The notes: generated from the letters alone by a model not told the origin. Shown: positions 7,630 to 51,350, counted from the stretch's first letter. The stretch is 64,000 bases of DNA from Clostridia bacterium (GCA_045536565.1 JAZSNU010000020.1:71275-135274), one strand, 5' to 3'. Numbers and translations are program-made.

Positions 7630-9456
7630 TTGGGTGATAGTTTGATATATTTTTTTCTGATAAGTTTTTTTGTTTTTTCTATCGTTGATTATATTTATCT
7701 GTATAATTATTTTGATTCTAAGTTTTTCTTGAATAAATCTGGTAGCAAATTAAATTATTTAGTAGACTTAGAAAACAACAAAAAGAATTTTAAAGATGAG
7801 TTTATAGCAGTTTTTTCAAAAAAGAATTTAGTTATTATTATAAAAGGTTTAATCTATATGATATTAATGCATATATTAAATATTATTGTATTCTATAAAA
7901 TCATTTTTTCGGACTTCTTAATTCTTAATTTAGGATATAAAAAGATAGATGTTGTTTCTACATTTGATTCATATTGGACAGGTTATATAAAAATATATTA
8001 TATAGTTTATACTATATTCTTAATTATTATATATGTTAAATATATAACTAAATCAAAGAACAAAATTCGTTCAAAAAACAAAAAAGAAGATTTAATAATT
8101 AACGATATTAGCAAAATATATTTAGGAAGTACTATTCAAAAAAGCAAGGTATATATTGATAAAGAAGAACTATATAAAAATGTATTAATTACAGGTAGTA
8201 TTGGTACAGGTAAGACGAGTGGCGCTATAAATACATTTTGCAAGTATATGGTGCAAAATAATATTCCTGGGATTGTTATAGATATAAAAGGAAACTATGT
8301 AAGTAAAGTTAAATCATTTTTAAATAATAATAATGTAGAAATAGTTGTTGTAGGTGACGAAAGTACATGTGGTTATAATCCTATAAGAAGAGATATTAAC
8401 AGCATGGAAATGGCAAATAGATTAAGAAAAGTAATTGAACTAATCTCTATTTCTAACACTAGTGATTCATATTGGTTAGATAAGGTGGAAAATGTACTTT
8501 TTAATGTGCTTTTGCTTATAAAGCATTGTCATTTAAATATAGATTTGCAAGAAATACACAGGTGCATAACTGATGATGAATATCTAAATAGAAATTTAGA
8601 TAAATTAAAAGACATTGTAGTGGATAATATCAATAATGATAAGACAGTACATGAAATAAATAATTTACTACTGTTTTTTAGAAATGAATATTTTAAGTTA
8701 GACATCAGAACAACTAGCATTATAAAATCGGAAATAACAAGACTTACTATACCATTTGTAACTGAATATGATGTGTGTAAAAAGTATGGAACTGAAAGTA
8801 AAGATAATACTAATTTAACATTCAGTAATATAACTCCTAAAATAGTGATTTTTTCTATGAATATGAGTAAAAATTTCTTACTTACTAAAATACTAGCAAC
8901 TTTTATCAAATTAGATTTTCAATCAGAAGTCCTTCAAAAAATATCAAATCCAATAGAAACATTTTGTATATGTGATGAGTATCAAGAATTTGCAAATAAG
9001 CAGGATGCACATTTTCTTTCTTTATCTAGGGAGGCCAAATGTATGAACATATTTAGTATGCAAAGTTATTCTTCACTAAATAATACATTAAAAAATGAAT
9101 ATGCATCAAATGTAATAATACAAAATCTAGTAAATAAGATATGGTTTAGAAATGATGATAATTATACATCACAAGAAATAGTAAAACAAATTGGACAAGA
9201 GAAAAAACAATTTAAAACAAGTAGTATAAGTGAAGGTGCTGAGGAATCAAAGAAAAGCATATTAAGCGGATTTAAGAACAAAAAATCAAATATATCAAAG
9301 ACTATCAGCTATGCAGAAAATAATGACAATATAGTTAGTTCAAAAGTTATAACACAAGAGCTTGAAGTGCTAGAGGCATTAGTGCTGTTTGGCAGTAATG
9401 GTAAAATGAATGAAATTCAAAGAATAAAGTTTGAAAGGGAGGAAGATAATGAATAA
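7630..9456 (+). CDS. VirD4/TraG-like (type IV coupling protein-like) membrane P-loop ATPase
   Basis: About 150 aa of N-terminal TM helices; Walker A ITGSIGTGKTSG; Walker B-like FCICDEYQEF; downstream Q-rich motif IFSMQSYSSLNN resembling the T4CP conserved QSxxQ motif. Exact start uncertain (TTG at 7630 is simply the first in-frame start in the track). Confidence 0.55.
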   Translation: MGDSLIYFFLISFFVFSIVDYIYLYNYFDSKFFLNKSGSKLNYLVDLENNKKNFKDEFIAVFSKKNLVIIIKGLIYMILMHILNIIVFYKIIFSDFLILNLGYKKIDVVSTFDSYWTGYIKIYYIVYTIFLIIIYVKYITKSKNKIRSKNKKEDLIINDISKIYLGSTIQKSKVYIDKEELYKNVLITGSIGTGKTSGAINTFCKYMVQNNIPGIVIDIKGNYVSKVKSFLNNNNVEIVVVGDESTCGYNPIRRDINSMEMANRLRKVIELISISNTSDSYWLDKVENVLFNVLLLIKHCHLNIDLQEIHRCITDDEYLNRNLDKLKDIVVDNINNDKTVHEINNLLLFFRNEYFKLDIRTTSIIKSEITRLTIPFVTEYDVCKKYGTESKDNTNLTFSNITPKIVIFSMNMSKNFLLTKILATFIKLDFQSEVLQKISNPIETFCICDEYQEFANKQDAHFLSLSREAKCMNIFSMQSYSSLNNTLKNEYASNVIIQNLVNKIWFRNDDNYTSQEIVKQIGQEKKQFKTSSISEGAEESKKSILSGFKNKKSNISKTISYAENNDNIVSSKVITQELEVLEALVLFGSNGKMNEIQRIKFEREEDNE

Positions 9457-9775
9457 AATATTAATCAAAATAACGGCCGTGTTGGTTATTACAGTGATTG
9501 TAATAGGTATGTTTTCAACAGTATATGGTGCAACAACACCAACACTAGTTAATAAACTAAATTCTATTTTAAAGAAAATAAAAGAATATATGGTAAAACT
9601 TGCAGGACCTGCTGCTGCTCTTGCAATTGCAACAGGGGTTATGATTAGAAAATTAAGTTTTGGTGATGAAGAAAAAATGGTGATAGGGAAAAGGGTTATC
9701 ATTAACGCTATATTTTGTTATTTCATAATTTTGCTTGTAGATTTAATTGTTAAATTTATAGAGGCTTTGGTATAG
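9449..9775 (+). CDS. small membrane protein with VirB2/TrbC pilin-like topology
   Basis: ATG 6 nt after AGGGAGG, overlapping the upstream stop (ATGAATAA). Signal-peptide-like N-terminus (VYGA/TT) then two hydrophobic helices (AGPAAALAIATGVMI, VIINAIFCYFIILLVDLIV). Confidence 0.4.
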   Translation: MNKILIKITAVLVITVIVIGMFSTVYGATTPTLVNKLNSILKKIKEYMVKLAGPAAALAIATGVMIRKLSFGDEEKMVIGKRVIINAIFCYFIILLVDLIVKFIEALV

Positions 9776-9778
9776 AGT

Positions 9779-24443: not shown

Positions 24444-25808
24444 ATGGATAAATTTAAAAAATTAAGACAAGATTATCCAATATTTGAATATAACTCATAC
24501 AAAATAGAATATAACAAGGGAAACATTAAAGTACAGTATTACTTTAATGTTCCTGGTCTTACCCAGTTTAGTCCAAGCTGGGATTTTCCATTTGCGGGAG
24601 AGTTAACAGAGCAGCAAAAAACATTATTTGAAACTGTTATATTTAACTTGGGCATGGTTGAGGTTGTGTCATACTTAAAGGCAACTTGTTCACCAAAGCT
24701 TATTGTAAAAACCGGAGAGTTAAATAATGAACAAATAGATTGGTATAAAAAGTTATATATTAATGGATTAGGAGAATTTTTCTATGTAAATGGGTTAGCG
24801 CATGAAATGAATATAGATACATTTGTAAATATTATATGTGAAACTGATAAAAGTCATATTGAAGCCAAAGAATCAAATATAGATTTAGATGGTAATTTAA
24901 TACCAGTTGGTGGAGGGAAAGATTCTGTTTTAACATTAGAGGTGTTAGAAGAAGAAAAAAACACCAATACTTGTTATATTGTTAATCCGAGAGGGGCTTC
25001 ATACGAATGTGCAAAAATGGCGGGATATGATGATAATGATATATATTGTCCAAAAAGATATTTAGATAAGAAAATAATAGAATTAAATAATCAAGGTTTC
25101 TTAAATGGACATACACCATTTTCCGCTATACTTGCATTTTCTTCATATGCATCTGCAATATTACTTGGTAAAAAATATATAGTGCTATCAAATGAGGATA
25201 GTGCAAATGAATCAAATGTTGAGGGAACAAGTATAAATCATCAGTATTCAAAAAGTATTGAATTTGAAAATGATTTTAGGTATTATGCTAAAAAATATTT
25301 ATGCCAAAATGGTCCGGAATATTTTAGTTTATTAAGACCAATAAGTGAATGGCAAATAGTAAAAGGGTTTGTAAAGAGTTCAAAATATTTTGAAATATTT
25401 AAAAGTTGTAATGTTGGTTCTAAAACTGATATATGGTGTGAGGACTGTCCTAAATGTTTGTATGTATATATAATGTTAGATGCTTTTTTAGAAGATAGTT
25501 ATATGAATAAAATATTTAAAACAAATATGCTTGAGAATAATAAATTAGAAAATATATTTAATGGTTTAGTATATCCAAATTATGACAAACCTTTTGAATG
25601 TGTAGGCACAAAAGAGGAAGTAAATCTGTGTATTGATATGATAATATCTAAACTAAAAAAACAAAACAAGGACTTACCAGTTCTTTTAAGAAACCATAAA
25701 GTAGAGCAAGAGTTGGAAGATAGAATAAATAAAATGGTAAATAATTGGAATAACAATAATAATTTACCAAAAGAATTTGAAATAAAGTTGAGAGAATATT
25801 TAATGTAA
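24444..25808 (+). CDS. PP-loop ATP-pyrophosphatase-like protein of unknown function (candidate MurL-type UDP-MurNAc-L-Ala-L-Glu epimerase)
   Basis: 454 aa. About 150-aa N-terminal domain of unknown type, then PP-loop IPVGGGKDS (SGGxDS) and a C-terminal Cys cluster CEDCPKC. Start overlaps the recR stop; the next gene is a MurD-family ligase 16 nt downstream. Confidence 0.5.
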   Translation: MDKFKKLRQDYPIFEYNSYKIEYNKGNIKVQYYFNVPGLTQFSPSWDFPFAGELTEQQKTLFETVIFNLGMVEVVSYLKATCSPKLIVKTGELNNEQIDWYKKLYINGLGEFFYVNGLAHEMNIDTFVNIICETDKSHIEAKESNIDLDGNLIPVGGGKDSVLTLEVLEEEKNTNTCYIVNPRGASYECAKMAGYDDNDIYCPKRYLDKKIIELNNQGFLNGHTPFSAILAFSSYASAILLGKKYIVLSNEDSANESNVEGTSINHQYSKSIEFENDFRYYAKKYLCQNGPEYFSLLRPISEWQIVKGFVKSSKYFEIFKSCNVGSKTDIWCEDCPKCLYVYIMLDAFLEDSYMNKIFKTNMLENNKLENIFNGLVYPNYDKPFECVGTKEEVNLCIDMIISKLKKQNKDLPVLLRNHKVEQELEDRINKMVNNWNNNNNLPKEFEIKLREYLM

Positions 25809-25823
25809 GTTTGAGGAGAATAC

Positions 25824-27110
25824 ATGTTAAAACAAAAAATAATAGAGGAACTTAAAAATAAAAAGGTATTAATTTTAGGTTTTGGAAGAGAAGGAAGAAG
25901 TACATATAACTTCATACAAAACAACAATGTAAACTGTATATTGGGAGTAGCGGATAAGAATGAAATAGTAGATGAGAAAATAGTAAATAGTAATATAAGT
26001 TTATATACAGATGAAAAGTATTTAGATAGTATATTTGAATATGATATTGTAATGAAATCACCTGGAATATCATTAAAAGATATTGATTATTCTAGTATTG
26101 AAGATAAAATAACATCTCAAACAGAACTTTTCTTAAAGTATGCATCAAAAAAAACAATAGGTATAACAGGTACAAAGGGAAAAAGTACAACATCTTCTAT
26201 TTTACACAATATGTTAAAAACAAAGTATAACACAATGCTTGTTGGAAATATTGGTAAGCCAGTATTTGAAGAAATTGATAAATATAACGATATAGACTAT
26301 TATGTGTATGAATTATCTTCTCACCAATTAGAGCATGTAGGATATAGTCCTCATATATCGGTTTTACTTAATATGTATGAGGAGCATCTTGACCATTATA
26401 ACTCATTTGACGAATATAAAGATGCAAAGAGAAATATATTTAAACATCAAAAAGAAACAGATTACTTAATATATAATCAAGATATGGAAGATATAATTTT
26501 AGGAGGTTATAGTCCAATACAAAACATATTAGATATATCAAAAATAGATTTTGAAATTAAAACAAATCTTATTGGAAAGCATAATGAGTACAATATGAGT
26601 GTAGCAGTAACCATAGCAGTATTACTGGGTGTAGATAATATGAGCATATCAAATTCGTTGCAAGAATTTAAAGGACTTCCACATAGATTAGAATATGTAG
26701 GGAAATATAATAATATTTATTTTGTAGATGATTCTATTGCAACTATACCAGAGGCGACTATTTCTGCTATTGAAAGCATAGAAAATGTTAGCACAGTTAT
26801 AATAGGTGGAATGGATAGGGGAATAGATTATACTAATTTAATAGATTACCTTAATAATAGTAATTTAGATAATATAGTGTTAATGAATGATAGTGGAAAG
26901 AGAATATATGCTGGGTTAAACAAAACAAATAGAAAAAACAATATAGTCATAGTAAATAGTTTAGAAGAAGCAGTAAAATATGCAATTCAGAATACAAACA
27001 AAAATATGACATGTCTATTATCTCCTGCCGCGGCAAGTTATGGAATATTCAAAAACTTTGAACAGCGAGGAGATAAATTTAAAGAATATATTATAAAATA
27101 TACAAAATAA
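25824..27110 (+). CDS. MurD-family UDP-N-acetylmuramoyl-L-alanine--glutamate ligase (MurD or MurD2)
   Basis: Mur ligase motifs GITGTKGKSTT, SSHQLE, KHNEYN, GLPHRLEYV, DDSIATIPEAT, SPAAASYGIFKNFEQRG, all co-linear with MurD. Confidence 0.8.
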   Translation: MLKQKIIEELKNKKVLILGFGREGRSTYNFIQNNNVNCILGVADKNEIVDEKIVNSNISLYTDEKYLDSIFEYDIVMKSPGISLKDIDYSSIEDKITSQTELFLKYASKKTIGITGTKGKSTTSSILHNMLKTKYNTMLVGNIGKPVFEEIDKYNDIDYYVYELSSHQLEHVGYSPHISVLLNMYEEHLDHYNSFDEYKDAKRNIFKHQKETDYLIYNQDMEDIILGGYSPIQNILDISKIDFEIKTNLIGKHNEYNMSVAVTIAVLLGVDNMSISNSLQEFKGLPHRLEYVGKYNNIYFVDDSIATIPEATISAIESIENVSTVIIGGMDRGIDYTNLIDYLNNSNLDNIVLMNDSGKRIYAGLNKTNRKNNIVIVNSLEEAVKYAIQNTNKNMTCLLSPAAASYGIFKNFEQRGDKFKEYIIKYTK

Positions 27111-45489: not shown

Positions 45490-45512
45490 TAAATATATGA
45501 GGATAAAATAAA

Positions 45513-45536
45513 AGACCAGCATTTGCTGGTCTTTAT
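45513..45536. terminator. bidirectional terminator
   Basis: AGACCAGC-ATTT-GCTGGTCT followed by TTATT. Confidence 0.6.
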
Positions 45537-45544
45537 TGGAATAT

Positions 45545-45883
45545 TTAAGCACACTCTTTTGCAATACGCTTTAATTCATTCCATTTGCTTTCAAAGGCTA
45601 CTGGATAGTCCCAATTTGAAAAAGGTACATACATGCCACGGCTTGTAAAACCATTTTCCTGAAGAATATCCATAAACTGTTTAGTATAAGGAATAACATG
45701 TAAAGTGCCATCTGTGAAGAATGAAATTATACCGTTATTCGTGTTGTAGGTGCTTTCAACAAGGTTAGATGCGTCAACAGTAAGTATTTCCTCTTGGTTT
45801 AATTGTGGCCATCTTACCTTAATTGGATGGGTAATTGCGATAGCTGTTTCTTTGAGTTCTGTGAGTGTTTTAATTGTTTTCAT
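45545..45883 (-). CDS. hypothetical protein (112 aa)
   Basis: RBS AAGGAGAAAAC. No motif recognised. Confidence 0.45.
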   Translation of the reverse strand: MKTIKTLTELKETAIAITHPIKVRWPQLNQEEILTVDASNLVESTYNTNNGIISFFTDGTLHVIPYTKQFMDILQENGFTSRGMYVPFSNWDYPVAFESKWNELKRIAKECA

Positions 45884-46141
45884 AATGTTTTCTCCTTTTC
45901 TCCTTCATGCTTTGCATGAGTTCTAATATAATCATATATATAATCAGGTTTCCCTGTTATTTTCCTGTTGTTTAGTATAACAACATCTTAATATGTTTAA
46001 GATAGTTATATTATACCATATTTTACATAAAAAAGCAAATTTCGTTAAATATCAAAGAGATTATTCTTTGTCGAATTTTGAATATAATAGTTTTTGTGTC
46101 ATATTTTGAAACACGGTTTTTGTTGACAAGCAAGGATTACC

Positions 46142-46999
46142 ATGTTAAAGTATAGACATAGAGGAGGTGGTTGTATCTATGAAATAATATGTATGGGTAT
46201 ATTCACAATAATTATATATAAAGTGTTAGATAAATATTTAATTGAGCAGAAAGGAAAAATTATAATAGGAAAGATCAATTTAGATAACAATCTTAATATA
46301 ACCAGAATGCCTACATGTATAAAAAAATATTTATCGAATATTCATAAAAAATTATTTAATATAAGTAATCCATATGGATTAAGTCTAAAAAAATATATAT
46401 TAATAAAATATGTTTTTTCATTTATGTTTTTTATCGTATCGATTATTAATAAAAATAGTATTTTAGTATCTTTAATTATTACAATCTTTACACATTTTAT
46501 ACCTAATTTGTTAATTTATATGTTTAAGAAAAACGAAAGAGTTTATGTTATAAAAAATCTAAGAAATATTGTAAATAGTATGGTTATATCTTTGTCTGCA
46601 TCACTTACATTAGAGTCAGCATTAAAAAGCAGTATAGATGCAATTGAATATAAAAGGTTAAAAGAGGAATTTGAAACTTTTATAGATAAATATAAAACAT
46701 ATGGATATAACATGAGAAAAGCCATTAATTCTCTTAAAGAAAAATTTAATTACTATGAAATTGAACTCTTTATATCGACACTCTTAAATGCAGAAAATGA
46801 TGGTAATATTATTAAAAGTTTAGAAAAGTATAATATGGTTTTAGATATAAGTTATTCTAAATATTTGGCTAAGGAAAATTCAAAAAGAGTTCTTTACCTT
46901 ACATTAGGAACGGTACTGGCACTTGTAAATATAATAATTATTGTAATGTATCCTATGTTTATAGAAGTAGCAGAAAATCTGCAAGTGATATTTAGTTAG
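46142..46999 (+). CDS. type II secretion system F-domain protein (TadB/TadC-like)
   Basis: Polytopic membrane protein with a T2SS-F-like cytoplasmic segment (SLSASLTLESALKSSIDAIEY...). Confidence 0.55.
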   Translation: MLKYRHRGGGCIYEIICMGIFTIIIYKVLDKYLIEQKGKIIIGKINLDNNLNITRMPTCIKKYLSNIHKKLFNISNPYGLSLKKYILIKYVFSFMFFIVSIINKNSILVSLIITIFTHFIPNLLIYMFKKNERVYVIKNLRNIVNSMVISLSASLTLESALKSSIDAIEYKRLKEEFETFIDKYKTYGYNMRKAINSLKEKFNYYEIELFISTLLNAENDGNIIKSLEKYNMVLDISYSKYLAKENSKRVLYLTLGTVLALVNIIIIVMYPMFIEVAENLQVIFS

Positions 47000-47010
47000 G
47001 AGGAAAAAAT

Positions 47011-47244
47011 TTGAAAAAAGTATTATTAGTAGTAAAAAACGGAAAAAAGAAAGAAGAAAAAATAAAAAATAATTTAAATAGTAAAAGAGGTTCAGAACTT
47101 GCTCAAACAGTTCTTATAACAGCAATTATGATTATGCTTATTGCAGCGTTATTCTTTCCTCAAATAAAAGGACTCTTCCAAACAGCAATGACTGAAATTA
47201 CAACTTGGTTTAATACCATTATTGGTGATATATCAGCAACATAA
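47011..47244 (+). CDS. Flp/Fap-type pilin-like protein
   Basis: 77 aa. Basic leader, then G/SELAQTVLITAIMIMLIAALFF hydrophobic segment (class III signal-peptide-like). TTG start 7 nt after AGGAGG. Confidence 0.4.
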   Translation: MKKVLLVVKNGKKKEEKIKNNLNSKRGSELAQTVLITAIMIMLIAALFFPQIKGLFQTAMTEITTWFNTIIGDISAT

Positions 47245-47263
47245 ATAATATAAGGAGAAAAAA

Positions 47264-47908
47264 TTGAATAATATAAAGAAAATAACAATTGCATTTTTAA
47301 TAGCATTAATTGTTGTAGTATTAGTAGAAATAACATGGAATAAATTTGGGATAAAACAAACAAATATATATGTTGCAGTAAAGGAAATATATAAAGGAGA
47401 AAAAATACTAGAAGATGATGTCAAAAAAATATCTTTAAATGCAACGGAAGGTATAAGTAAATATACAAATAGTGATATAGTAGGAAAGATTGCCAAGAAT
47501 AATATTTCGTCTGATAAGATTGTATCAAAGGGAGATGTTACCGCAAACAAATTAGAAATAGAAGATGAGGAAAGTTATGAATATATAACAATAGAGGTAA
47601 AAAGTATAAGTGACTCTCTTGCATATCAGATAAAAAAAGGAGATTATATAAATGTATATTATACAACTAAAAATAGAAAACTAGAGAATTTATTTATAAA
47701 CAAACGAGAAGTACTTCAAAATAATTTAAGCATTACATACAGAATATTTGAAAATACAAAGGTGATAGGCCTATATAATACAGTAGGTCAAGAAGTAAAA
47801 AATGGTAATCAATATAATGGGATAATGCTTAGAGTCAAAAAGCAAGATGCACTATTTGTATCGAATATAAAAGATGAAGGTGTATTTACAACATCTATAT
47901 TAAAATAA
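47264..47908 (+). CDS. CpaB/RcpC-like protein (N-terminal TM, SAF-like domain)
   Basis: TM followed by VAVKEIYKGEKILEDDV, typical of the CpaB SAF domain. TTG start after AAGGAG. Confidence 0.45.
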   Translation: MNNIKKITIAFLIALIVVVLVEITWNKFGIKQTNIYVAVKEIYKGEKILEDDVKKISLNATEGISKYTNSDIVGKIAKNNISSDKIVSKGDVTANKLEIEDEESYEYITIEVKSISDSLAYQIKKGDYINVYYTTKNRKLENLFINKREVLQNNLSITYRIFENTKVIGLYNTVGQEVKNGNQYNGIMLRVKKQDALFVSNIKDEGVFTTSILK

Positions 47909-47920
47909 TGGAGGTATAGT

Positions 47921-48283
47921 TTGAAAATAGCATTTATTAATTCAGAGAAATATTCCAAGTATAATGATAAAATAAAAGAAATTGTAGAAAATGTTAATAA
48001 TAGGTTAGTAAAAAATATGCAGCAAGCAGAAGTAAATCAAGTAGCAATAGGAACAAGGAAAAAATATGATTTATATTTTGTAATAACAGATGATATAGAA
48101 GATTTTAATCTGGTTTGTCTAAAAATAAAACCTAAAATAAATCCAGTATTAATCACTAAAAATCTAGAAGAAAAATTTATTAGGTCAGTTATATTCTCAG
48201 TAAAAGATATATTATACATTGATAATAGTATTGAAGTTATAACAAATAGAATAGCAAGTATTATAGGAAAAACATATGTATAA
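47921..48283 (+). CDS. hypothetical protein, possible degenerate receiver-like fragment
   Basis: 120 aa; alternating beta/alpha pattern with acidic pocket candidates (VITDDIED). No ATPase domain follows. Confidence 0.3.
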   Translation: MKIAFINSEKYSKYNDKIKEIVENVNNRLVKNMQQAEVNQVAIGTRKKYDLYFVITDDIEDFNLVCLKIKPKINPVLITKNLEEKFIRSVIFSVKDILYIDNSIEVITNRIASIIGKTYV

Positions 48284-48836
48284 AAAACAGAACAAGTATA
48301 TTTTAGTCATAATGTTTTTTGTAGGTATTCTTTTTATAGCTGGTTTTGTCAAAACATTTTTTAGTTATAACGATAAATTTATTGATACCACAAATATGTC
48401 TATATATAGAATAGATAATAGTATATCTAAAAATATTACATCAAGACAAATATTGCGTAAGGATAATGTTGTTTTTGTAGGAAATAGCAAAAAAGAAATT
48501 GAAAATGGATACTATGATCTAAAAATAATGTTAGAAGATAGAAATGTTAAGTTATATATAAATAAATTGTGGAAAGTATTTAATCAATCATTATATGAAA
48601 AAGATTATGTGCGTGAGGTAATAAACAGTGTATTTGATATTTTTGAGATTAATCAAAAAAAACAAAAAGAATGTTTAATACAATATATTACTAATGGATA
48701 TTTAGTTAGTAAAGGAGTAAATAAGGAAAATAGTAGTAATGAACAAATATATATAGATAAAATTAGAATTAAATCAGAAATAGTAGATAGCGAATTGATT
48801 TTGAATATTTGTAAAGAGGTGAAGTGTGAAAGTTAA
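48276..48836 (+). CDS. hypothetical membrane-anchored protein
   Basis: N-terminal TM; overlaps neighbours by a few nt. Confidence 0.4.
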   Translation: MYKKQNKYILVIMFFVGILFIAGFVKTFFSYNDKFIDTTNMSIYRIDNSISKNITSRQILRKDNVVFVGNSKKEIENGYYDLKIMLEDRNVKLYINKLWKVFNQSLYEKDYVREVINSVFDIFEINQKKQKECLIQYITNGYLVSKGVNKENSSNEQIYIDKIRIKSEIVDSELILNICKEVKCES

Positions 48837-50436
48837 GAATATAAAACTTGCAATTTCAACATTGTGCATGTGTATAATGTGCATAACTTCCAACAAAATA
48901 TATGGAATAAGCGAAGATTTTAAATTTGTAATAGATACAATAGGTATACCTAGATATAATGTATATGGAAAAGAGATTAATGAGGAAGTATATAAAGCAT
49001 ATAATATTTTTTCTTATGGCTGGCCAGAAGAATTGGGTGCAGATATAGGGCAAAGATGGAAAGGTTCAAAATATGGTTTATGGGCACAAGGAATAGGGGA
49101 ATATACTGGAAGTGGAACAAGAGGAGAATATAATTTGCTTGGTAAAGATTATAGTGGGAATATCATTAATAATTATTATTTTCCTGTGGATTTTATTCCT
49201 ACAGATACACCAGAATATTGGGAGTACTGTGTTAATCCTGGTGCAATAGAATCTTGGAATGATAAAAACAAATACAAATATGTTGAACAATTAGAATATA
49301 TGAAAAATACCAAATTGCTTTTTAATGATATTTCAAGTAGAGATAATGCAGATAATCCAGATATGATGAGAGAATATAACATAAGAGCATCACAAATTGG
49401 GTTAGATAAGGCAAGATTAGATGTGTGTTCCACATGGAAAACAAATGGTATGATTTATGTTAAAAGAAGAGTAGGAAATAGTACTAGGTATGCAGTTTTT
49501 TTAACGAATCCTATGGCTTCTGATGCAAAAATTAAAGCATATATAGATAATGTAAGACTAAGTATGACTATGTATAAAAAACAGGACGAAATAAGAATAC
49601 CAATAAGTTATGGTGCAAACATAGAAAACATGAATGGGTATGCTAAGAAAGAACATATAAAAGAAATAAAATCTGAGTTATATATTAATGGGAAGGTAGT
49701 GGATGAAATAAGTGGCAGTAAAATAGATACAGTGGGTAAAAAATATGTATTAAAGTTATCCAGAGAAGAGTTAAATGAAAATGAGTACAATATAATAGAA
49801 ATTAAAAATAAAAGTTATGCACATACTGAATTTGCAGTGGATGGTCTCATGCAAAGCAGTAAAACTATAACGATAAGAGTATTTGTAGAGAAAAAAGAAG
49901 ATATCCCCTTTAATTTTGATAGTGTAAAAGTTTTAGAAAAAGAAAATGATAATCTGGTTGTAAGACCACTTGCCCAATTTAATTCGTCGGAAGAAAGTTT
50001 CGGAATAACAGAAGCAGGAAAATATTTAGCAGTAAAATTTAATATTAATGATAAACTAAAATATGAAGATTTACAGGATATTGCATTATACTTAAATGAT
50101 GAAAGAATAGATAGTTTTGAAACTAAAAGGTCTGATAATAGTAATGCTTGTTGTGTGATTTTTAGAATACCTACATACACAGATTCTACCATATTTGGTT
50201 GGAAGAGTTTAAGGCAGCTTTATGGTAATTATTTTAGTATTGATGAAACCCAGATAGGAAAAAGAATAAACAATGCACATGAGTTTGTGATAAAAGTAAA
50301 GTATAATGACAAGGAATATAGTGTAAGTTGCAACTTTGATACAATAGATGATTATGTCACTAATATTAATTATAGATATGATGGCGCTAAAAATAATAAT
50401 GAGATGGTATTGTTTTCGGAGTGGTTAGAAGAATGA
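48826..50436 (+). CDS. large secreted protein of unknown function (536 aa)
   Basis: GTG start after AGAGGTGAA. Signal-peptide-like N-terminus (LAISTLCMCIMCITSNKIYG). Rich in W/Y/N. Confidence 0.5.
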   Translation: MKVKNIKLAISTLCMCIMCITSNKIYGISEDFKFVIDTIGIPRYNVYGKEINEEVYKAYNIFSYGWPEELGADIGQRWKGSKYGLWAQGIGEYTGSGTRGEYNLLGKDYSGNIINNYYFPVDFIPTDTPEYWEYCVNPGAIESWNDKNKYKYVEQLEYMKNTKLLFNDISSRDNADNPDMMREYNIRASQIGLDKARLDVCSTWKTNGMIYVKRRVGNSTRYAVFLTNPMASDAKIKAYIDNVRLSMTMYKKQDEIRIPISYGANIENMNGYAKKEHIKEIKSELYINGKVVDEISGSKIDTVGKKYVLKLSREELNENEYNIIEIKNKSYAHTEFAVDGLMQSSKTITIRVFVEKKEDIPFNFDSVKVLEKENDNLVVRPLAQFNSSEESFGITEAGKYLAVKFNINDKLKYEDLQDIALYLNDERIDSFETKRSDNSNACCVIFRIPTYTDSTIFGWKSLRQLYGNYFSIDETQIGKRINNAHEFVIKVKYNDKEYSVSCNFDTIDDYVTNINYRYDGAKNNNEMVLFSEWLEE

Positions 50437-50918
50437 AAAGATTAAAAAGAGGAAATATAACTTTAATGTTATTTCCTATTGGTGTAATGTTATTAATTAT
50501 AATACTTATTTCAATTGCCTTTTTATACATTCAAATAATAGTTAAAATACATGATATTAAATCTAATTTGTTTTATATAGTATCATCTAGTGTTCAAAAA
50601 GACACATTAGAAAATTTATCATATAGGGAATACCTAATTGATAGTGAAAAAATAAAAGAAAAGATAAACTTTTTACTTAATAAAAATTATTTAAAAGAAA
50701 ATACTAACAATGGAATAATAGCCATAGAGTGCGAAGAGGTAAGGCTAGTAAAAAATGAAGGTGATACTATTAAGCATACAAATGGTAAATATAATTTTCC
50801 GATAATATGTGTAAATATACGAGTAGAGTTTAAACCAGTAATAAGCATAATAGGTGATAGGTTAAATATTAAAATACATGAAGATATTAAATTTAACCTT
50901 TTAGAATTTAGTAATTAG
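50433..50918 (+). CDS. TadE-like membrane protein
   Basis: N-terminal RGNITLMLFPIGVMLLIIILISIAF resembling a TadE/TadG N-terminal segment. Confidence 0.35.
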   Translation: MKRLKRGNITLMLFPIGVMLLIIILISIAFLYIQIIVKIHDIKSNLFYIVSSSVQKDTLENLSYREYLIDSEKIKEKINFLLNKNYLKENTNNGIIAIECEEVRLVKNEGDTIKHTNGKYNFPIICVNIRVEFKPVISIIGDRLNIKIHEDIKFNLLEFSN

Positions 50919-50936
50919 CGAAAGGAAATATAATAT

Positions 50937-51350
50937 ATGGATAAGATAAATAAAAAAGGAAATACTGTACTCACCATGCCTTTTGTTATTATAATATCAC
51001 TTACAATAATTATACTGTTTTCTGTATTTGCGATTAATATGATTATGCCATTTATATGGTATGAAAAGTTGCAACATATAAGTTATAAATATATGTATGT
51101 TATTGAAAAGTATGGGTATTTAACAGAAGATGAAAAGGAAAGCCTTATAGAAGAATTAGATAGACATGGATTTGATAAAGAGGAAATAAAAGTAGAAGCA
51201 CCTACTCAGCCATTAGGATATGGAAATATAATTGAGTTTAATATTAAATATAATTATAAACAAAAACTTCCTTTGTGGGAAGGAAGTTTAAAAATGGTTA
51301 CGAAAGATATACCTATAAATGTAAATAAAACCATTATATCGAAGATTTAA
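50937..51350 (+). CDS. small membrane protein associated with Tad-like loci
   Basis: N-terminal TM (MPFVIIISLTIIILFSVFAINMI); 137 aa. Confidence 0.35.
   Translation: MDKINKKGNTVLTMPFVIIISLTIIILFSVFAINMIMPFIWYEKLQHISYKYMYVIEKYGYLTEDEKESLIEELDRHGFDKEEIKVEAPTQPLGYGNIIEFNIKYNYKQKLPLWEGSLKMVTKDIPINVNKTIISKI

What the first reader, a model, noticed from the sequence alone, without database searches (positions are those of the whole stretch)
46142..51350. Tad/Flp-pilus-like gene cluster lacking its ATPase, TadZ and prepilin peptidase
Eight co-directional, tightly spaced genes encode: a T2SS-F (TadB/C-like) membrane protein; a 77-aa Flp-like pilin with class-III-signal-like G/SELAQTVLI; a CpaB/RcpC-like SAF protein; a 120-aa receiver-like fragment; a membrane protein; a 536-aa secreted protein; a TadE-like protein; and a small membrane protein. 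A functional Tad system needs a CpaF/TadA ATPase, normally a TadZ/CpaE ParA-like protein and a TadV peptidase, and usually two T2SS-F paralogues. None of these is here, and upstream is a 258-nt non-coding gap and unrelated genes. The 120-aa receiver-like ORF sits where the receiver domain of TadZ would be, without the ATPase half. This is either a remnant after deletion or a cluster that borrows an ATPase encoded elsewhere. The large secreted protein would be a candidate pilus-associated adhesin.
Basis: partly seen in the sequence, partly recalled or inferred. Interest (0 to 1): 0.55.

Follow-up and report, generated by a model that had tools for sequence, protein, structure and literature searches.

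The report
Conserved Tad-like pilus operon without motor
An eight-gene operon in uncultured low-GC gut Clostridia encodes the pilin, platform and scaffold parts of a Tad/Flp pilus plus a surface anchor and adhesin-like pair, but no motor ATPase or prepilin peptidase. It is conserved and under selection in dozens of species, so it is a working module, not a deletion remnant.

Summary
The eight co-directional ORFs at 46142-51350 are real. They form an operon with its own promoter, which is conserved across five genomes. Weak but mutually consistent evidence identifies a TadB/C-like platform protein, an Flp1-like prepilin, a CpaB/SAF protein and two prepilin-like small proteins. A structure model shows the 120-aa ORF is a complete stand-alone receiver-fold domain, not a fragment.

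The 186-aa and 536-aa proteins are a conserved pair. The first is an anchor. The second is a secreted protein with an N-terminal Athe_2463 domain followed by tandem Ig-like domains.

No T2SSE ATPase, ParA/TadZ ATPase, second platform gene or A24 peptidase turned up anywhere I looked. That covers the 64-kb window, ±10 kb of about 15 orthologous loci, and the flanks held (up to 10 kb a side) of about 10 loci of a sister seven-gene variant at another chromosomal site.

All eight genes have dN/dS of 0.06-0.41, so the "remnant" reading is rejected. Distant relatives of the 536-aa protein close two complete, divergent Tad-like loci that do carry a T2SSE ATPase and two platform genes. The operon is therefore a reduced derivative of that architecture.

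The best reading is a satellite Tad module that uses an ATPase and peptidase encoded elsewhere. That step is inferred and could not be tested here. Verdict: a new variant of a known kind, moderately interesting.

The parts
46123..46151 (+). Sigma-70-type promoter with extended -10 (TTGACA-17-TGnTAAAGT). The RBS GGAGGTG follows at 46163-46169.
   Evidence: Promoter scan, 10 of 12 matches with TG. Almost invariant in an alignment of five genomes whose coding regions share only about 50-80% aa identity with the window.
46142..46999 (+). g1: TadB/TadC-like inner-membrane platform protein with a single T2SSF domain and about 4 TM segments. The likely true start is the ATC at 46175.
   Evidence: Pfam T2SSF 21.1 bits (cut-off 25.2) covering profile positions 3-125 of 125. 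Orthologue P0036 carries precomputed PF00482. The g1 HMM hits the two genes downstream of the T2SSE ATPase in L020, at E 2e-8 and 4e-3. TM scan; start codon.
47011..47244 (+). g2: Flp1-like prepilin, the putative major subunit. It has a basic leader, a predicted cleavage after G27, and the mature N-terminus SELAQTVLI...
   Evidence: Pfam Flp1_like in 12 of 13 orthologues, best E 9e-7. G27 is invariant and followed by a hydrophobic helix; position +5 is E in one clade and Q in the window's clade. It is the most conserved gene of the operon (92% aa identity, dN/dS 0.055 versus L018).
47264..47908 (+). g3: CpaB/RcpC-like bitopic protein with a SAF domain.
   Evidence: Pfam SAF 31.9 bits (cut-off 21) and RcpC 17.3 bits. 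NCBIfam pilus_cpaB E 1e-7. Profile hit to FlgA 3frn at E 0.0015. The g3 HMM hits the SAF genes of the complete loci L022 (5e-6) and L020 (4e-3).
47921..48283 (+). g4: stand-alone cytoplasmic pseudo-receiver (CheY/REC fold), resembling the N-terminal domain of TadZ/CpaE.
48276..48836 (+). g5: bitopic membrane protein. Its ectodomain is the conserved partner domain found upstream of Athe_2463-domain genes, so it is read as an anchor.
   Evidence: hhalign of g5 family A12 against the SLH proteins of the sister clusters, A13: probability 67%, E 5e-5 over 103 columns. The A12 HMM hits the SLH or amine-oxidase-N proteins directly upstream of Athe_2463-like genes in L019 (7e-7), L023 (1.5e-6) and L024 (1e-3). 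The A13 HMM hits L019, L023, L024, L025 and L020_294 at 1e-8 to 1e-34, and L022_227 only weakly (7e-3).
48826..50436 (+). g6: Sec-secreted protein (signal helix, conserved ...YG|IS...). It has an N-terminal Athe_2463 domain (residues 51-225) followed by tandem Ig-like beta-sandwich domains. It is read as a surface or adhesin-like protein.
50421..50918 (+). g7: prepilin-like small protein, a pseudopilin candidate, with N-terminus ...KRG|NITLML followed by a TM helix.
   Evidence: G11 is invariant, preceded by K/R and followed by a hydrophobic helix in 13 orthologues. No family hit.
50937..51350 (+). g8: TadE/TadF-like pseudopilin candidate with N-terminus ...KKG|NTVLTMPFVII.
   Evidence: Pfam TadF E 7e-4 in the window protein, matched in 4 of 13 orthologues; DUF4320 in 2 of 13. 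G8 and P15 are conserved.

Best explanation
This is a functional, vertically conserved satellite Tad/Flp module. It is one operon with its own promoter.

It encodes six Tad-type parts: one TadB/C-type platform protein (g1), an Flp-type prepilin (g2), two pseudopilin-like proteins (g7, g8), a CpaB-like SAF scaffold (g3) and a stand-alone pseudo-receiver of the kind fused to TadZ/CpaE (g4). It also encodes a conserved two-gene surface module: a membrane anchor (g5) and a secreted protein with an Athe_2463 domain and an Ig-like rod (g6).

Shown here: the identity of the parts, their conservation, purifying selection, the absence of a motor, ParA or peptidase in cis, and descent from the same architecture as complete Tad-like loci that end with the g5-like/g6-like pair.

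Inferred: g2, g7 and g8 are cleaved after their conserved Gly by a prepilin peptidase encoded elsewhere. They are then polymerised on the g1 platform by a T2SSE-family ATPase encoded elsewhere, such as the CpaF/TadA of a second, complete Tad locus, or ComGA or PilB. g4 would serve as a docking adaptor and g3 as the wall-spanning collar. The resulting short Flp-type fibre would work together with the g5-anchored g6 adhesin-like protein in attachment.
For: Parts: family hits; prepilin motifs; REC fold; g6 model. Operon and promoter. Conservation: the same eight genes occur in 12 species representatives and in metagenome contigs. A seven-gene sister variant sits at another chromosomal site. Selection: dN/dS 0.06-0.41 for all eight genes. 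No motor in cis: window; precomputed Pfam on L001, L003, L004, L018; the only P-loop ORFs in L006-L017 are ftsE-, dnaB-, rarA- and transketolase-like by motif context; sister loci. Link to complete systems: L020 and L022 carry SAF, a ParA-like gene, a T2SSE ATPase, two platform genes (hit by the g1 HMM in L020), Flp-like genes, small TM proteins, a g5-like gene and an Athe_2463-like gene. Literature: prepilin peptidases are exchangeable between systems and can be encoded apart, and multi-locus Tad systems exist but are 'very rare' (PMC6668835). Pilins need not sit with the biogenesis genes (PMC3244431). A low-GC uncultured gut Clostridia order, TANB77, carries a separate complete Tad locus with TadA and a fused TadC-TadB (PMC11680825).
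Against: No ATPase or peptidase has actually been shown in any genome that carries the operon. I could not read the rest of these genomes, and it is not shown that the window belongs to TANB77. Most family hits are below the curated cut-offs (T2SSF 21.1 vs 25.2; Flp1_like 16.8 vs 33.5; pilus_cpaB 31 vs 71; TadF 20 vs 27.3). The window's Flp-like protein has Q rather than E at +5 and lacks the Flp Tyr at +6. Sharing one assembly ATPase between two different platform proteins has no established precedent that I know of. The g5-g6 pair also occurs without any Tad genes, on mobile elements, so its link to a fibre is by association only.
Confidence: 0.55

Rival explanations
1. ATPase-independent, Tad-derived surface-display scaffold. 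The pilin-like proteins, platform and SAF protein would form a static membrane and wall complex that holds the g5-g6 adhesin pair. There would be no ATP-driven polymerisation, and the genomes would have no dedicated motor.
For: No ATPase lies next to the operon in any of about 25 loci from two lineages and two chromosomal sites. The ParA half of TadZ and the second platform gene are also gone. The g5-g6 pair works without Tad genes in other contexts. Q replaces the assembly-critical E at +5 in two lineages.
Against: ATPases are one of the five key, homologous functions of the type IV filament superfamily (PMC6668835), and I know of no described member that lacks one. A platform protein, which is the ATPase's partner, is retained and conserved, as is a cytoplasmic receiver domain. 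The three prepilin-type cleavage sites are conserved, which implies processing and assembly.
Confidence: 0.15
2. Competence (DNA-uptake) pseudopilus of Flp type. It would be powered by the ComGA-type ATPase and processed by ComC, as in the Flp-dependent transformation of Micrococcus luteus.
For: In the window's lineage the operon always sits next to mecA and rpsF-ssb-rpsR. comEA lies about 2 kb upstream and a Com_YlbF gene downstream in L003. Flp pili can mediate transformation (PMC4322843, listed).
Against: The sister variant lies at an unrelated site (PBP and minC upstream, a metallo-beta-lactamase-fold gene and murA downstream) with no competence genes. The operon contains an adhesin-like pair rather than DNA-binding parts. 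mecA, ssb and rpsF are housekeeping neighbours.
Confidence: 0.1
3. Decaying remnant of a Tad locus after deletion of tadZ, tadA and tadB.
For: Compared with the complete relatives L020 and L022, the ATPase, the ParA-like gene and one platform gene are missing.
Against: All eight ORFs are intact in every locus that spans the operon. dN/dS is 0.06-0.41. The promoter and RBS are conserved. The arrangement persists across orthologues that are only 36% identical and in a sister lineage.
Confidence: 0.03
4. Not Tad-related at all: the sub-threshold hits are chance matches of small hydrophobic proteins.
For: Only SAF and the Athe_2463 domain pass curated cut-offs. Profile searches of the PDB found nothing for g1, g4 or g6.
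Against: Five independent weak signals all point to the same system (T2SSF, Flp1_like, CpaB/RcpC, TadF/DUF4320, a CpaE-like REC fold). Flp1_like recurs in 12 of 13 orthologues. The g1, g3 and g6 HMMs hit the corresponding genes of loci that carry a T2SSE ATPase.
Confidence: 0.04

Closest known systems
Tad/Flp (type IVc) pilus loci of Gram-positive bacteria (Clostridia, Actinobacteria; Imam et al. 2011, PMC3244431; Denise et al. 2019, PMC6668835)
   Same: It has an Flp-like small prepilin without Tyr at +6, as described for Gram-positive 'Flp-like' pilins. It also has TadE/F-like pseudopilins, a CpaB/RcpC SAF protein, a single-domain T2SSF platform protein and a receiver domain like that of TadZ/CpaE.
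   Different: It has no TadA/CpaF, no ParA-type half of TadZ, no TadV, and one platform gene instead of the contiguous TadB-TadC pair. The gene order is rearranged (platform, Flp, CpaB, REC). An anchor and adhesin-like pair is embedded in the operon.
Divergent complete Tad-like loci that end in an Athe_2463-domain giant protein (found here: L020 from ENA ERZ4537018; L022 from GCA_973469065.1)
   Same: They share homologous SAF, g5-like partner and Athe_2463-domain genes, in roughly the same 3' order (small TM proteins, partner, Athe_2463 protein). The g1 HMM also hits the two platform genes of L020; the equivalent pair in L022 is placed by position only.
   Different: Those loci keep a T2SSE ATPase (490 and 468 aa), a ParA-like gene and two platform genes. 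Their Flp-like genes are leaderless (MNEMIVK...). Their Athe_2463 proteins are 707-1822 aa. They sit in mobile-element-like surroundings.
Conserved Tad pilus cluster of the uncultured gut order TANB77 (Nat Commun 2024, PMC11680825)
   Same: It comes from low-GC, uncultured gut 'Clostridia bacterium' MAGs, is a Tad-type cluster conserved across a whole lineage, and includes a large (621-aa) putative minor pilin or adhesin.
   Different: That cluster is complete (CpaB 358 aa, TadZ 231, CpaE 280, TadA 640, fused TadC-TadB 693) and its table lists no Flp-sized (under 100 aa) pilin. Gene sizes and order do not match the operon here. Whether the two coexist in one genome is unknown.
Athe_2463/Athe_2464 of Caldicellulosiruptor bescii (NCBIfam NF047340; PMC5865380)
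   Same: The N-terminal domain of g6 meets the NF047340 cut-off. Athe_2463 is a signal-peptide-bearing, abundant extracellular protein encoded in an operon with a partner gene.
   Different: The function of Athe_2463 is unknown; it is induced on xylan and xylose. No pilus context is reported for it. g6 is shorter and is followed by Ig-like domains only.
TadZ/CpaE atypical receiver domain (e.g. PDB 4dn6)

Membership tests
Tad/Flp (type IVc) pilus system | T2SSE-family assembly ATPase (TadA/CpaF) encoded with the system | tested here: not met
   No PF00437 hit among about 40 window ORFs. None in ±10 kb of L001, L003, L004 or L018. The only P-loop ORFs in L006-L017 look like ftsE, dnaB, rarA and transketolase by motif context. 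None in the sister loci. Presence elsewhere in the genome could not be tested.
Tad/Flp (type IVc) pilus system | Two contiguous single-domain T2SSF platform proteins (TadB and TadC) | tested here: not met
   Only one T2SSF-like gene, g1, is present. Its Pfam T2SSF score is 21.1 bits, below the 25.2 cut-off, although the whole domain is covered. Homology to the platform genes of L020 is supported.
Tad/Flp (type IVc) pilus system | Flp prepilin: short protein with a G/xxxxEY cleavage motif and a hydrophobic Flp motif | tested here: inconclusive
   g2 is 77 aa with an invariant Gly followed by a hydrophobic helix. Flp1_like matches 12 of 13 orthologues (best 9e-7), but the window copy scores 16.8 against a 33.5 cut-off. 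Position +5 is Q in the window and E in other clades, and Tyr at +6 is absent.
Tad/Flp (type IVc) pilus system | Prepilin peptidase TadV (peptidase A24) | tested here: not met
   No A24 hit and no multi-TM candidate in the window or in the annotated flanks. The peptidase is known to be encoded apart in some systems (PMC6668835).
Tad/Flp (type IVc) pilus system | TadZ/CpaE: receiver-like domain fused to a ParA/MinD-type ATPase | tested here: not met
   Only the receiver fold is present, as a separate 120-aa protein. No ParA or CbiA domain is found anywhere in the operon.
Tad/Flp (type IVc) pilus system | CpaB/RcpC SAF-domain protein | tested here: inconclusive
   SAF scores 31.9 bits against a 21 cut-off, so that part is met. 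pilus_cpaB scores 31.4 against 71, and RcpC 17.3 against 28.8.
Tad/Flp (type IVc) pilus system | TadE/TadF pseudopilins with a prepilin cleavage site | tested here: inconclusive
   g8 scores 20 bits on TadF (cut-off 27.3), matched in 4 of 13 orthologues; DUF4320 matches 2 of 13. g7 has no family hit. Both have a conserved basic-Gly-hydrophobic N-terminus.
Athe_2463 domain-containing proteins (NCBIfam NF047340) | Score at or above the curated cut-off over the whole domain model | tested here: met
   g6 residues 51-225 match model positions 1-176 of 177 at 58.7 bits; the cut-off is 36.
Response-regulator receiver (CheY-like) domain | (beta-alpha)5 receiver fold | tested here: met
Response-regulator receiver (CheY-like) domain | Conserved phospho-acceptor Asp after beta3 and an acidic pocket after beta1 | tested here: not met
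   The position after beta3 varies (D/N/S) among orthologues, and the beta1 loop is S-E, N-G or similar. Only T79 and Y99 are invariant. No Pfam Response_reg hit. hhalign against a window receiver domain is not significant.

The most novel reading that the evidence does not exclude
The genomes that carry this operon have no dedicated T2SSE motor for it. In that case it is a Tad-derived apparatus that works without its own assembly ATPase. One possibility is a static pilin, platform and SAF scaffold that holds a wall-spanning adhesin. Another is a second platform that competes for a single shared CpaF motor, with the free-standing pseudo-receiver g4 acting as the selector. Either would be a mode of operation not described for the type IV filament superfamily.
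Probability: 0.15. Interest if true: 0.8.

Novelty: new variant of a known kind. Interest (0 to 1): 0.45.

Why it matters
ATPases, platform proteins and pilins are three of the key functions shared across the type IV filament superfamily. Tad genes are almost always in one locus, and multi-locus Tad systems are called 'very rare' (PMC6668835).

Here a platform gene, pilins and a scaffold are kept together for a long evolutionary time without a motor. That happened in two lineages of uncultured gut Clostridia. It implies either a motor shared in trans between two platforms or a motor-free use of Tad parts.

The work also defines a recurrent two-gene surface module: a variable anchor (TM, SLH or other) followed by an Athe_2463-domain protein. 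This gives a first functional context to an orphan NCBIfam domain.

The hosts may be related to TANB77, whose pilus proteins have been linked to immunotherapy response. If so, this second pilus-like surface structure would be relevant to host interaction.

Tried and rejected
1. Looking up the window's own proteins in the contig index failed. The NCBI genome, whose contig is 145 kb long, is not on record, so I could not walk beyond the window.

2. Profile searches of PDB sequences with g1, g4 and g6 gave nothing useful. g3 gave only FlgA SAF.

3. hhalign of g4 against a receiver domain from the window was in register but not significant. The structure model settled the fold instead.

5. tblastn of g6 against PLSDB plasmids found no match.

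6. An HMM built from the two divergent ATPases of L020 and L022 found nothing in the window or any locus. It is too narrow to count as a general T2SSE test, so I also used a P-loop motif scan and Pfam.

7. I looked for a riboswitch in the 258-nt leader, since c-di-GMP riboswitches control some clostridial pili. There was no Rfam match.

8. I considered that L003 has a leaderless Flp. This was rejected: an in-frame leader with KVG|SEMIEN exists if translation starts at ATA or ATT.

9. I considered that the 112-aa minus-strand ORF upstream belongs to the system. This was rejected: it is absent from all related loci.

10. I considered an assembly artefact. This was rejected because of the many independent assemblies.

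11. I could not establish whether the window belongs to TANB77.

Full report
**Observation**

The window is about 28% G+C. Eight + strand ORFs of 285, 77, 214, 120, 186, 536, 165 and 137 aa occupy 46142-51350. They are separated by gaps of 11-19 nt or overlap by 8-16 nt.

Upstream lie ruvA, ftsE, ftsX and a PcsB-like M23 peptidase, then a 112-aa minus-strand ORF and a 258-nt gap. Downstream lie mecA (convergent), rpsF, ssb and rpsR; by order and size the next genes look like gdpP, rplI and dnaB (gene order as in L001).

The gap holds a sigma-70-type promoter with an extended -10 (TTGACA-17-TGnTAAAGT, 46123-46151) and the RBS GGAGGTG. Both are almost invariant in five genomes whose proteins share only about 50-80% identity with the window's. 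The ATG at 46142 lies inside that promoter. The real start of gene 1 is probably the ATC at 46175, which is an ATH codon in all five genomes. The gap has no Rfam match.

**What the genes are**

- **g1.** It matches Pfam T2SSF over the whole domain, at 21.1 bits against a 25.2 cut-off. It has about four TM segments.
- **g2.** Its orthologues match Flp1_like in 12 of 13 cases, best E 9e-7. The alignment shows a basic leader, an invariant Gly and a hydrophobic helix. The motif is K(K/R)G|(S/A)x(L/V)x(E/Q)(T/S)(I/V)L. Position +5 is E in one clade and Q, with E at +2, in the window's clade and in the sister lineage.
- **g3.** It has a SAF domain above the cut-off and weak CpaB/RcpC hits.
- **g7 and g8.** Both have conserved (K/R)(K/R)G|(N/S) N-termini followed by a TM helix. 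g8 gives weak TadF and DUF4320 hits.
- **g6.** It has a Sec-type signal peptide. Its N-terminal domain meets NCBIfam NF047340, the 'Athe_2463 domain', at 58.7 bits against a 36 cut-off. Its model (pLDDT 88) continues into tandem Ig-like domains. Structure searches find only ICAM, titin, RTX-adhesin and FN3-type matches, and nothing for the N-terminal domain. Athe_2463 itself is an abundant secreted protein of unknown function in Caldicellulosiruptor bescii (PMC5865380).

**Is anything missing, and is it a remnant?**

About 40 ORFs of the window were scanned with Pfam. None is a T2SSE ATPase, a ParA/CpaE or an A24 peptidase. The unscanned ORFs include no peptidase-like multi-TM protein.

The operon is nonetheless conserved. 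Homologues of g1 and g6 led to 12 GTDB species representatives, all uncultured 'Clostridia bacterium' MAGs, and to several metagenome contigs. These carry the same eight genes in the same order (the loci that are cut short carry the 5' genes only), and every locus that reaches past the operon continues with mecA and rpsF, even where g1 is only 36% identical.

Their ±10-kb flanks contain no T2SSE gene. This rests on precomputed Pfam for L001, L003, L004 and L018. In L006-L017 the only P-loop ORFs look like ftsE, dnaB, rarA and transketolase, judged from the motif context.

Against the closest relative, L018, dN/dS is 0.06-0.41 for all eight genes. The cluster also evolves much faster than its neighbours: g5 shows 47% and g7 54% aa identity, against 99-100% for ssb and rpsF. 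That pattern fits surface-exposed proteins.

A deletion remnant is therefore excluded. So is the idea that the missing genes lie just outside the region.

**Wider relatives**

An exhaustive profile search with g6 against 1.84 billion representative proteins found only 165 hits. The distant hits are 700-2750-aa proteins with the same N-terminal domain followed by PKD, Ig or RCC1 modules. I examined six of their contexts.

Two contexts, L020 and L022, are complete but very divergent Tad-like loci. Their order is: SAF protein, ParA-like protein, T2SSE ATPase (490 and 468 aa), two platform proteins, one or two Flp-like genes, small TM proteins, a partner protein, and finally the Athe_2463-domain protein. 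The g1 HMM hits the two L020 platform proteins at 2e-8 and 4e-3, but gives no significant hit to the L022 pair, which I place by position only. The g3 and g6 HMMs hit the corresponding genes in both loci.

The other four contexts are mobile-element-like regions. There an SLH-domain protein, or a Cu-amine-oxidase-N-domain protein, directly precedes the Athe_2463-like gene.

In five of the six contexts the upstream gene clearly shares a C-terminal domain with the SLH partner proteins (A13 HMM, 1e-8 to 1e-34); the sixth, L022_227, is marginal (7e-3). The g5 family links to the same domain: its A12 HMM hits three of these partners (7e-7 to 1e-3), and hhalign of A12 against A13 gives probability 67% and E 5e-5.

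So g5 and g6 form a recurrent two-gene module. The first gene is an anchor with a variable attachment device: TM here, SLH elsewhere. The second is a protein with an Athe_2463 domain.

**Sister lineage**

A metagenome scan with the outgroup of the g6 family found a second operon type: g1, g2, g3, an SLH-anchored g5 homologue of about 415 aa, g6, g7, g8. It has no g4. It sits at a different chromosomal site, with a PBP and minC upstream and a metallo-beta-lactamase-fold gene and murA downstream. Again there is no ATPase in the flanks that are held.

**Mechanism**

Shown:
- the parts list;
- the single transcription unit;
- long-term conservation and purifying selection;
- the absence of motor, ParA, peptidase and second platform gene in cis;
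- homology to complete loci that do have them.

Inferred:
- The three prepilin-like proteins are cut after their conserved Gly by a peptidase encoded elsewhere. Peptidases are known to be exchangeable and to be encoded apart (PMC6668835).
- They are polymerised on g1 by a T2SSE ATPase encoded elsewhere.
- g4 acts as a docking adaptor.
- g3 acts as a collar.
- g5 holds g6 at the surface.

A plausible donor of the motor is a second, complete Tad locus. One such locus is conserved in the low-GC uncultured gut order TANB77 (PMC11680825). Its published gene table lists no Flp-sized pilin. I could not show that the window belongs to that order, and I could not read the rest of any genome. This step therefore stays an inference, with confidence about 0.55 for the whole model.

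The main rival is a motor-free, Tad-derived scaffold, at about 0.15. A competence role is suggested only by neighbourhood (mecA, ssb, and comEA in L003), and the sister lineage's different location argues against it.

**Comparison and novelty**

The operon works like part of a Tad/Flp system. It fails the membership test on four defining features: ATPase, paired platform proteins, TadZ ATPase and peptidase. Multi-locus Tad systems are described as very rare. Gram-positive tad loci without pilins have been noted (PMC3244431). A conserved operon that is the complement of those loci, with platform, pilins, scaffold and receiver but no motor, does not appear in the papers I searched.

I rate it a new variant of a known kind, with interest 0.45. 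Full-genome scans would settle the central open question quickly. If a complete Tad locus coexists in these genomes, the finding becomes a split or accessory Tad system with an unusual second platform. If no motor exists, it would be far more surprising.

Noticed in passing
L037:5676-7410, L038:6415-8161, L039:4051-5785, L044:4932-6639: In four sister-lineage contigs the g6 orthologue is split by a +1 frameshift at the same codon position (...GEYWIL|GENKDGYE...). I read the site in three of them: CTT-C-GGA in L037 and L044, TTA-C-GGA in L038; L039 has the same ORF split as L037. The 0 frame reads CTT CGG AGA AAA and then a stop, resembling a Ty1-type CUU-(rare Arg) +1 site. Orthologues in L027, L031, L034 and L049, and in the window, are intact. 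This could be programmed frameshifting or recurrent pseudogenisation.
   Followed up: partly
L022:7923-9219 and L020:7968-9123: The complete divergent Tad-like loci have leaderless Flp-like and pseudopilin-like genes (MNEMIVK..., MNEFIVK..., MNNFIVN..., MNTFIIR...). For the Flp-like genes checked, an in-frame stop lies 2 (L022) or 10 (L020) codons upstream with no start codon between. No A24 peptidase gene lies in the locus. This suggests peptidase-independent pilins.
   Followed up: partly
window 7630-13038: A TrwB/VirD4-like coupling protein (608 aa) is followed by three small multi-TM ORFs of 114, 279 and 117 aa, which look like a T4SS pilin, TrbL and VirB3. Then come DnaD-like and DnaC/IstB-like genes. 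This may be a remnant of a conjugative element or a conserved block.
   Followed up: partly
window 45511-45883 (-): A 112-aa ORF with its own terminator (45534-45511) sits between pcsB and the operon. It has no family hit and is absent from every related locus, so it is an insertion specific to this genome.
   Followed up: partly
window 24444-27110: A MurL-like gene (UDP-MurNAc-L-Ala-L-Glu epimerase; NF041275 at 229.6 bits, below the 700 equivalog cut-off) lies next to a MurD-like Mur ligase. This suggests the MurD2/MurL route to D-Glu in peptidoglycan.
   Followed up: no
window 46175; L003:10816-10930: Non-canonical ATH start codons seem to be used. g1 probably starts at ATC 46175, 7 nt after GGAGG of the RBS GGAGGTG. 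The Flp-like gene of L003 has a full in-frame leader only if it starts at ATT or ATA, and gene callers mis-set both starts.
   Followed up: partly
window 46050-46122: Conserved motifs lie upstream of the -35 element (TTTGTCGAA at about 46066-46074, and TGTCAT...TTTTG(G/A)(A/C)A(T/C)ACG(A/G/C)T at about 46097-46117; TACGATTTTTG is the majority form). They are shared by five genomes and may be an operator for an unknown regulator.
   Followed up: no
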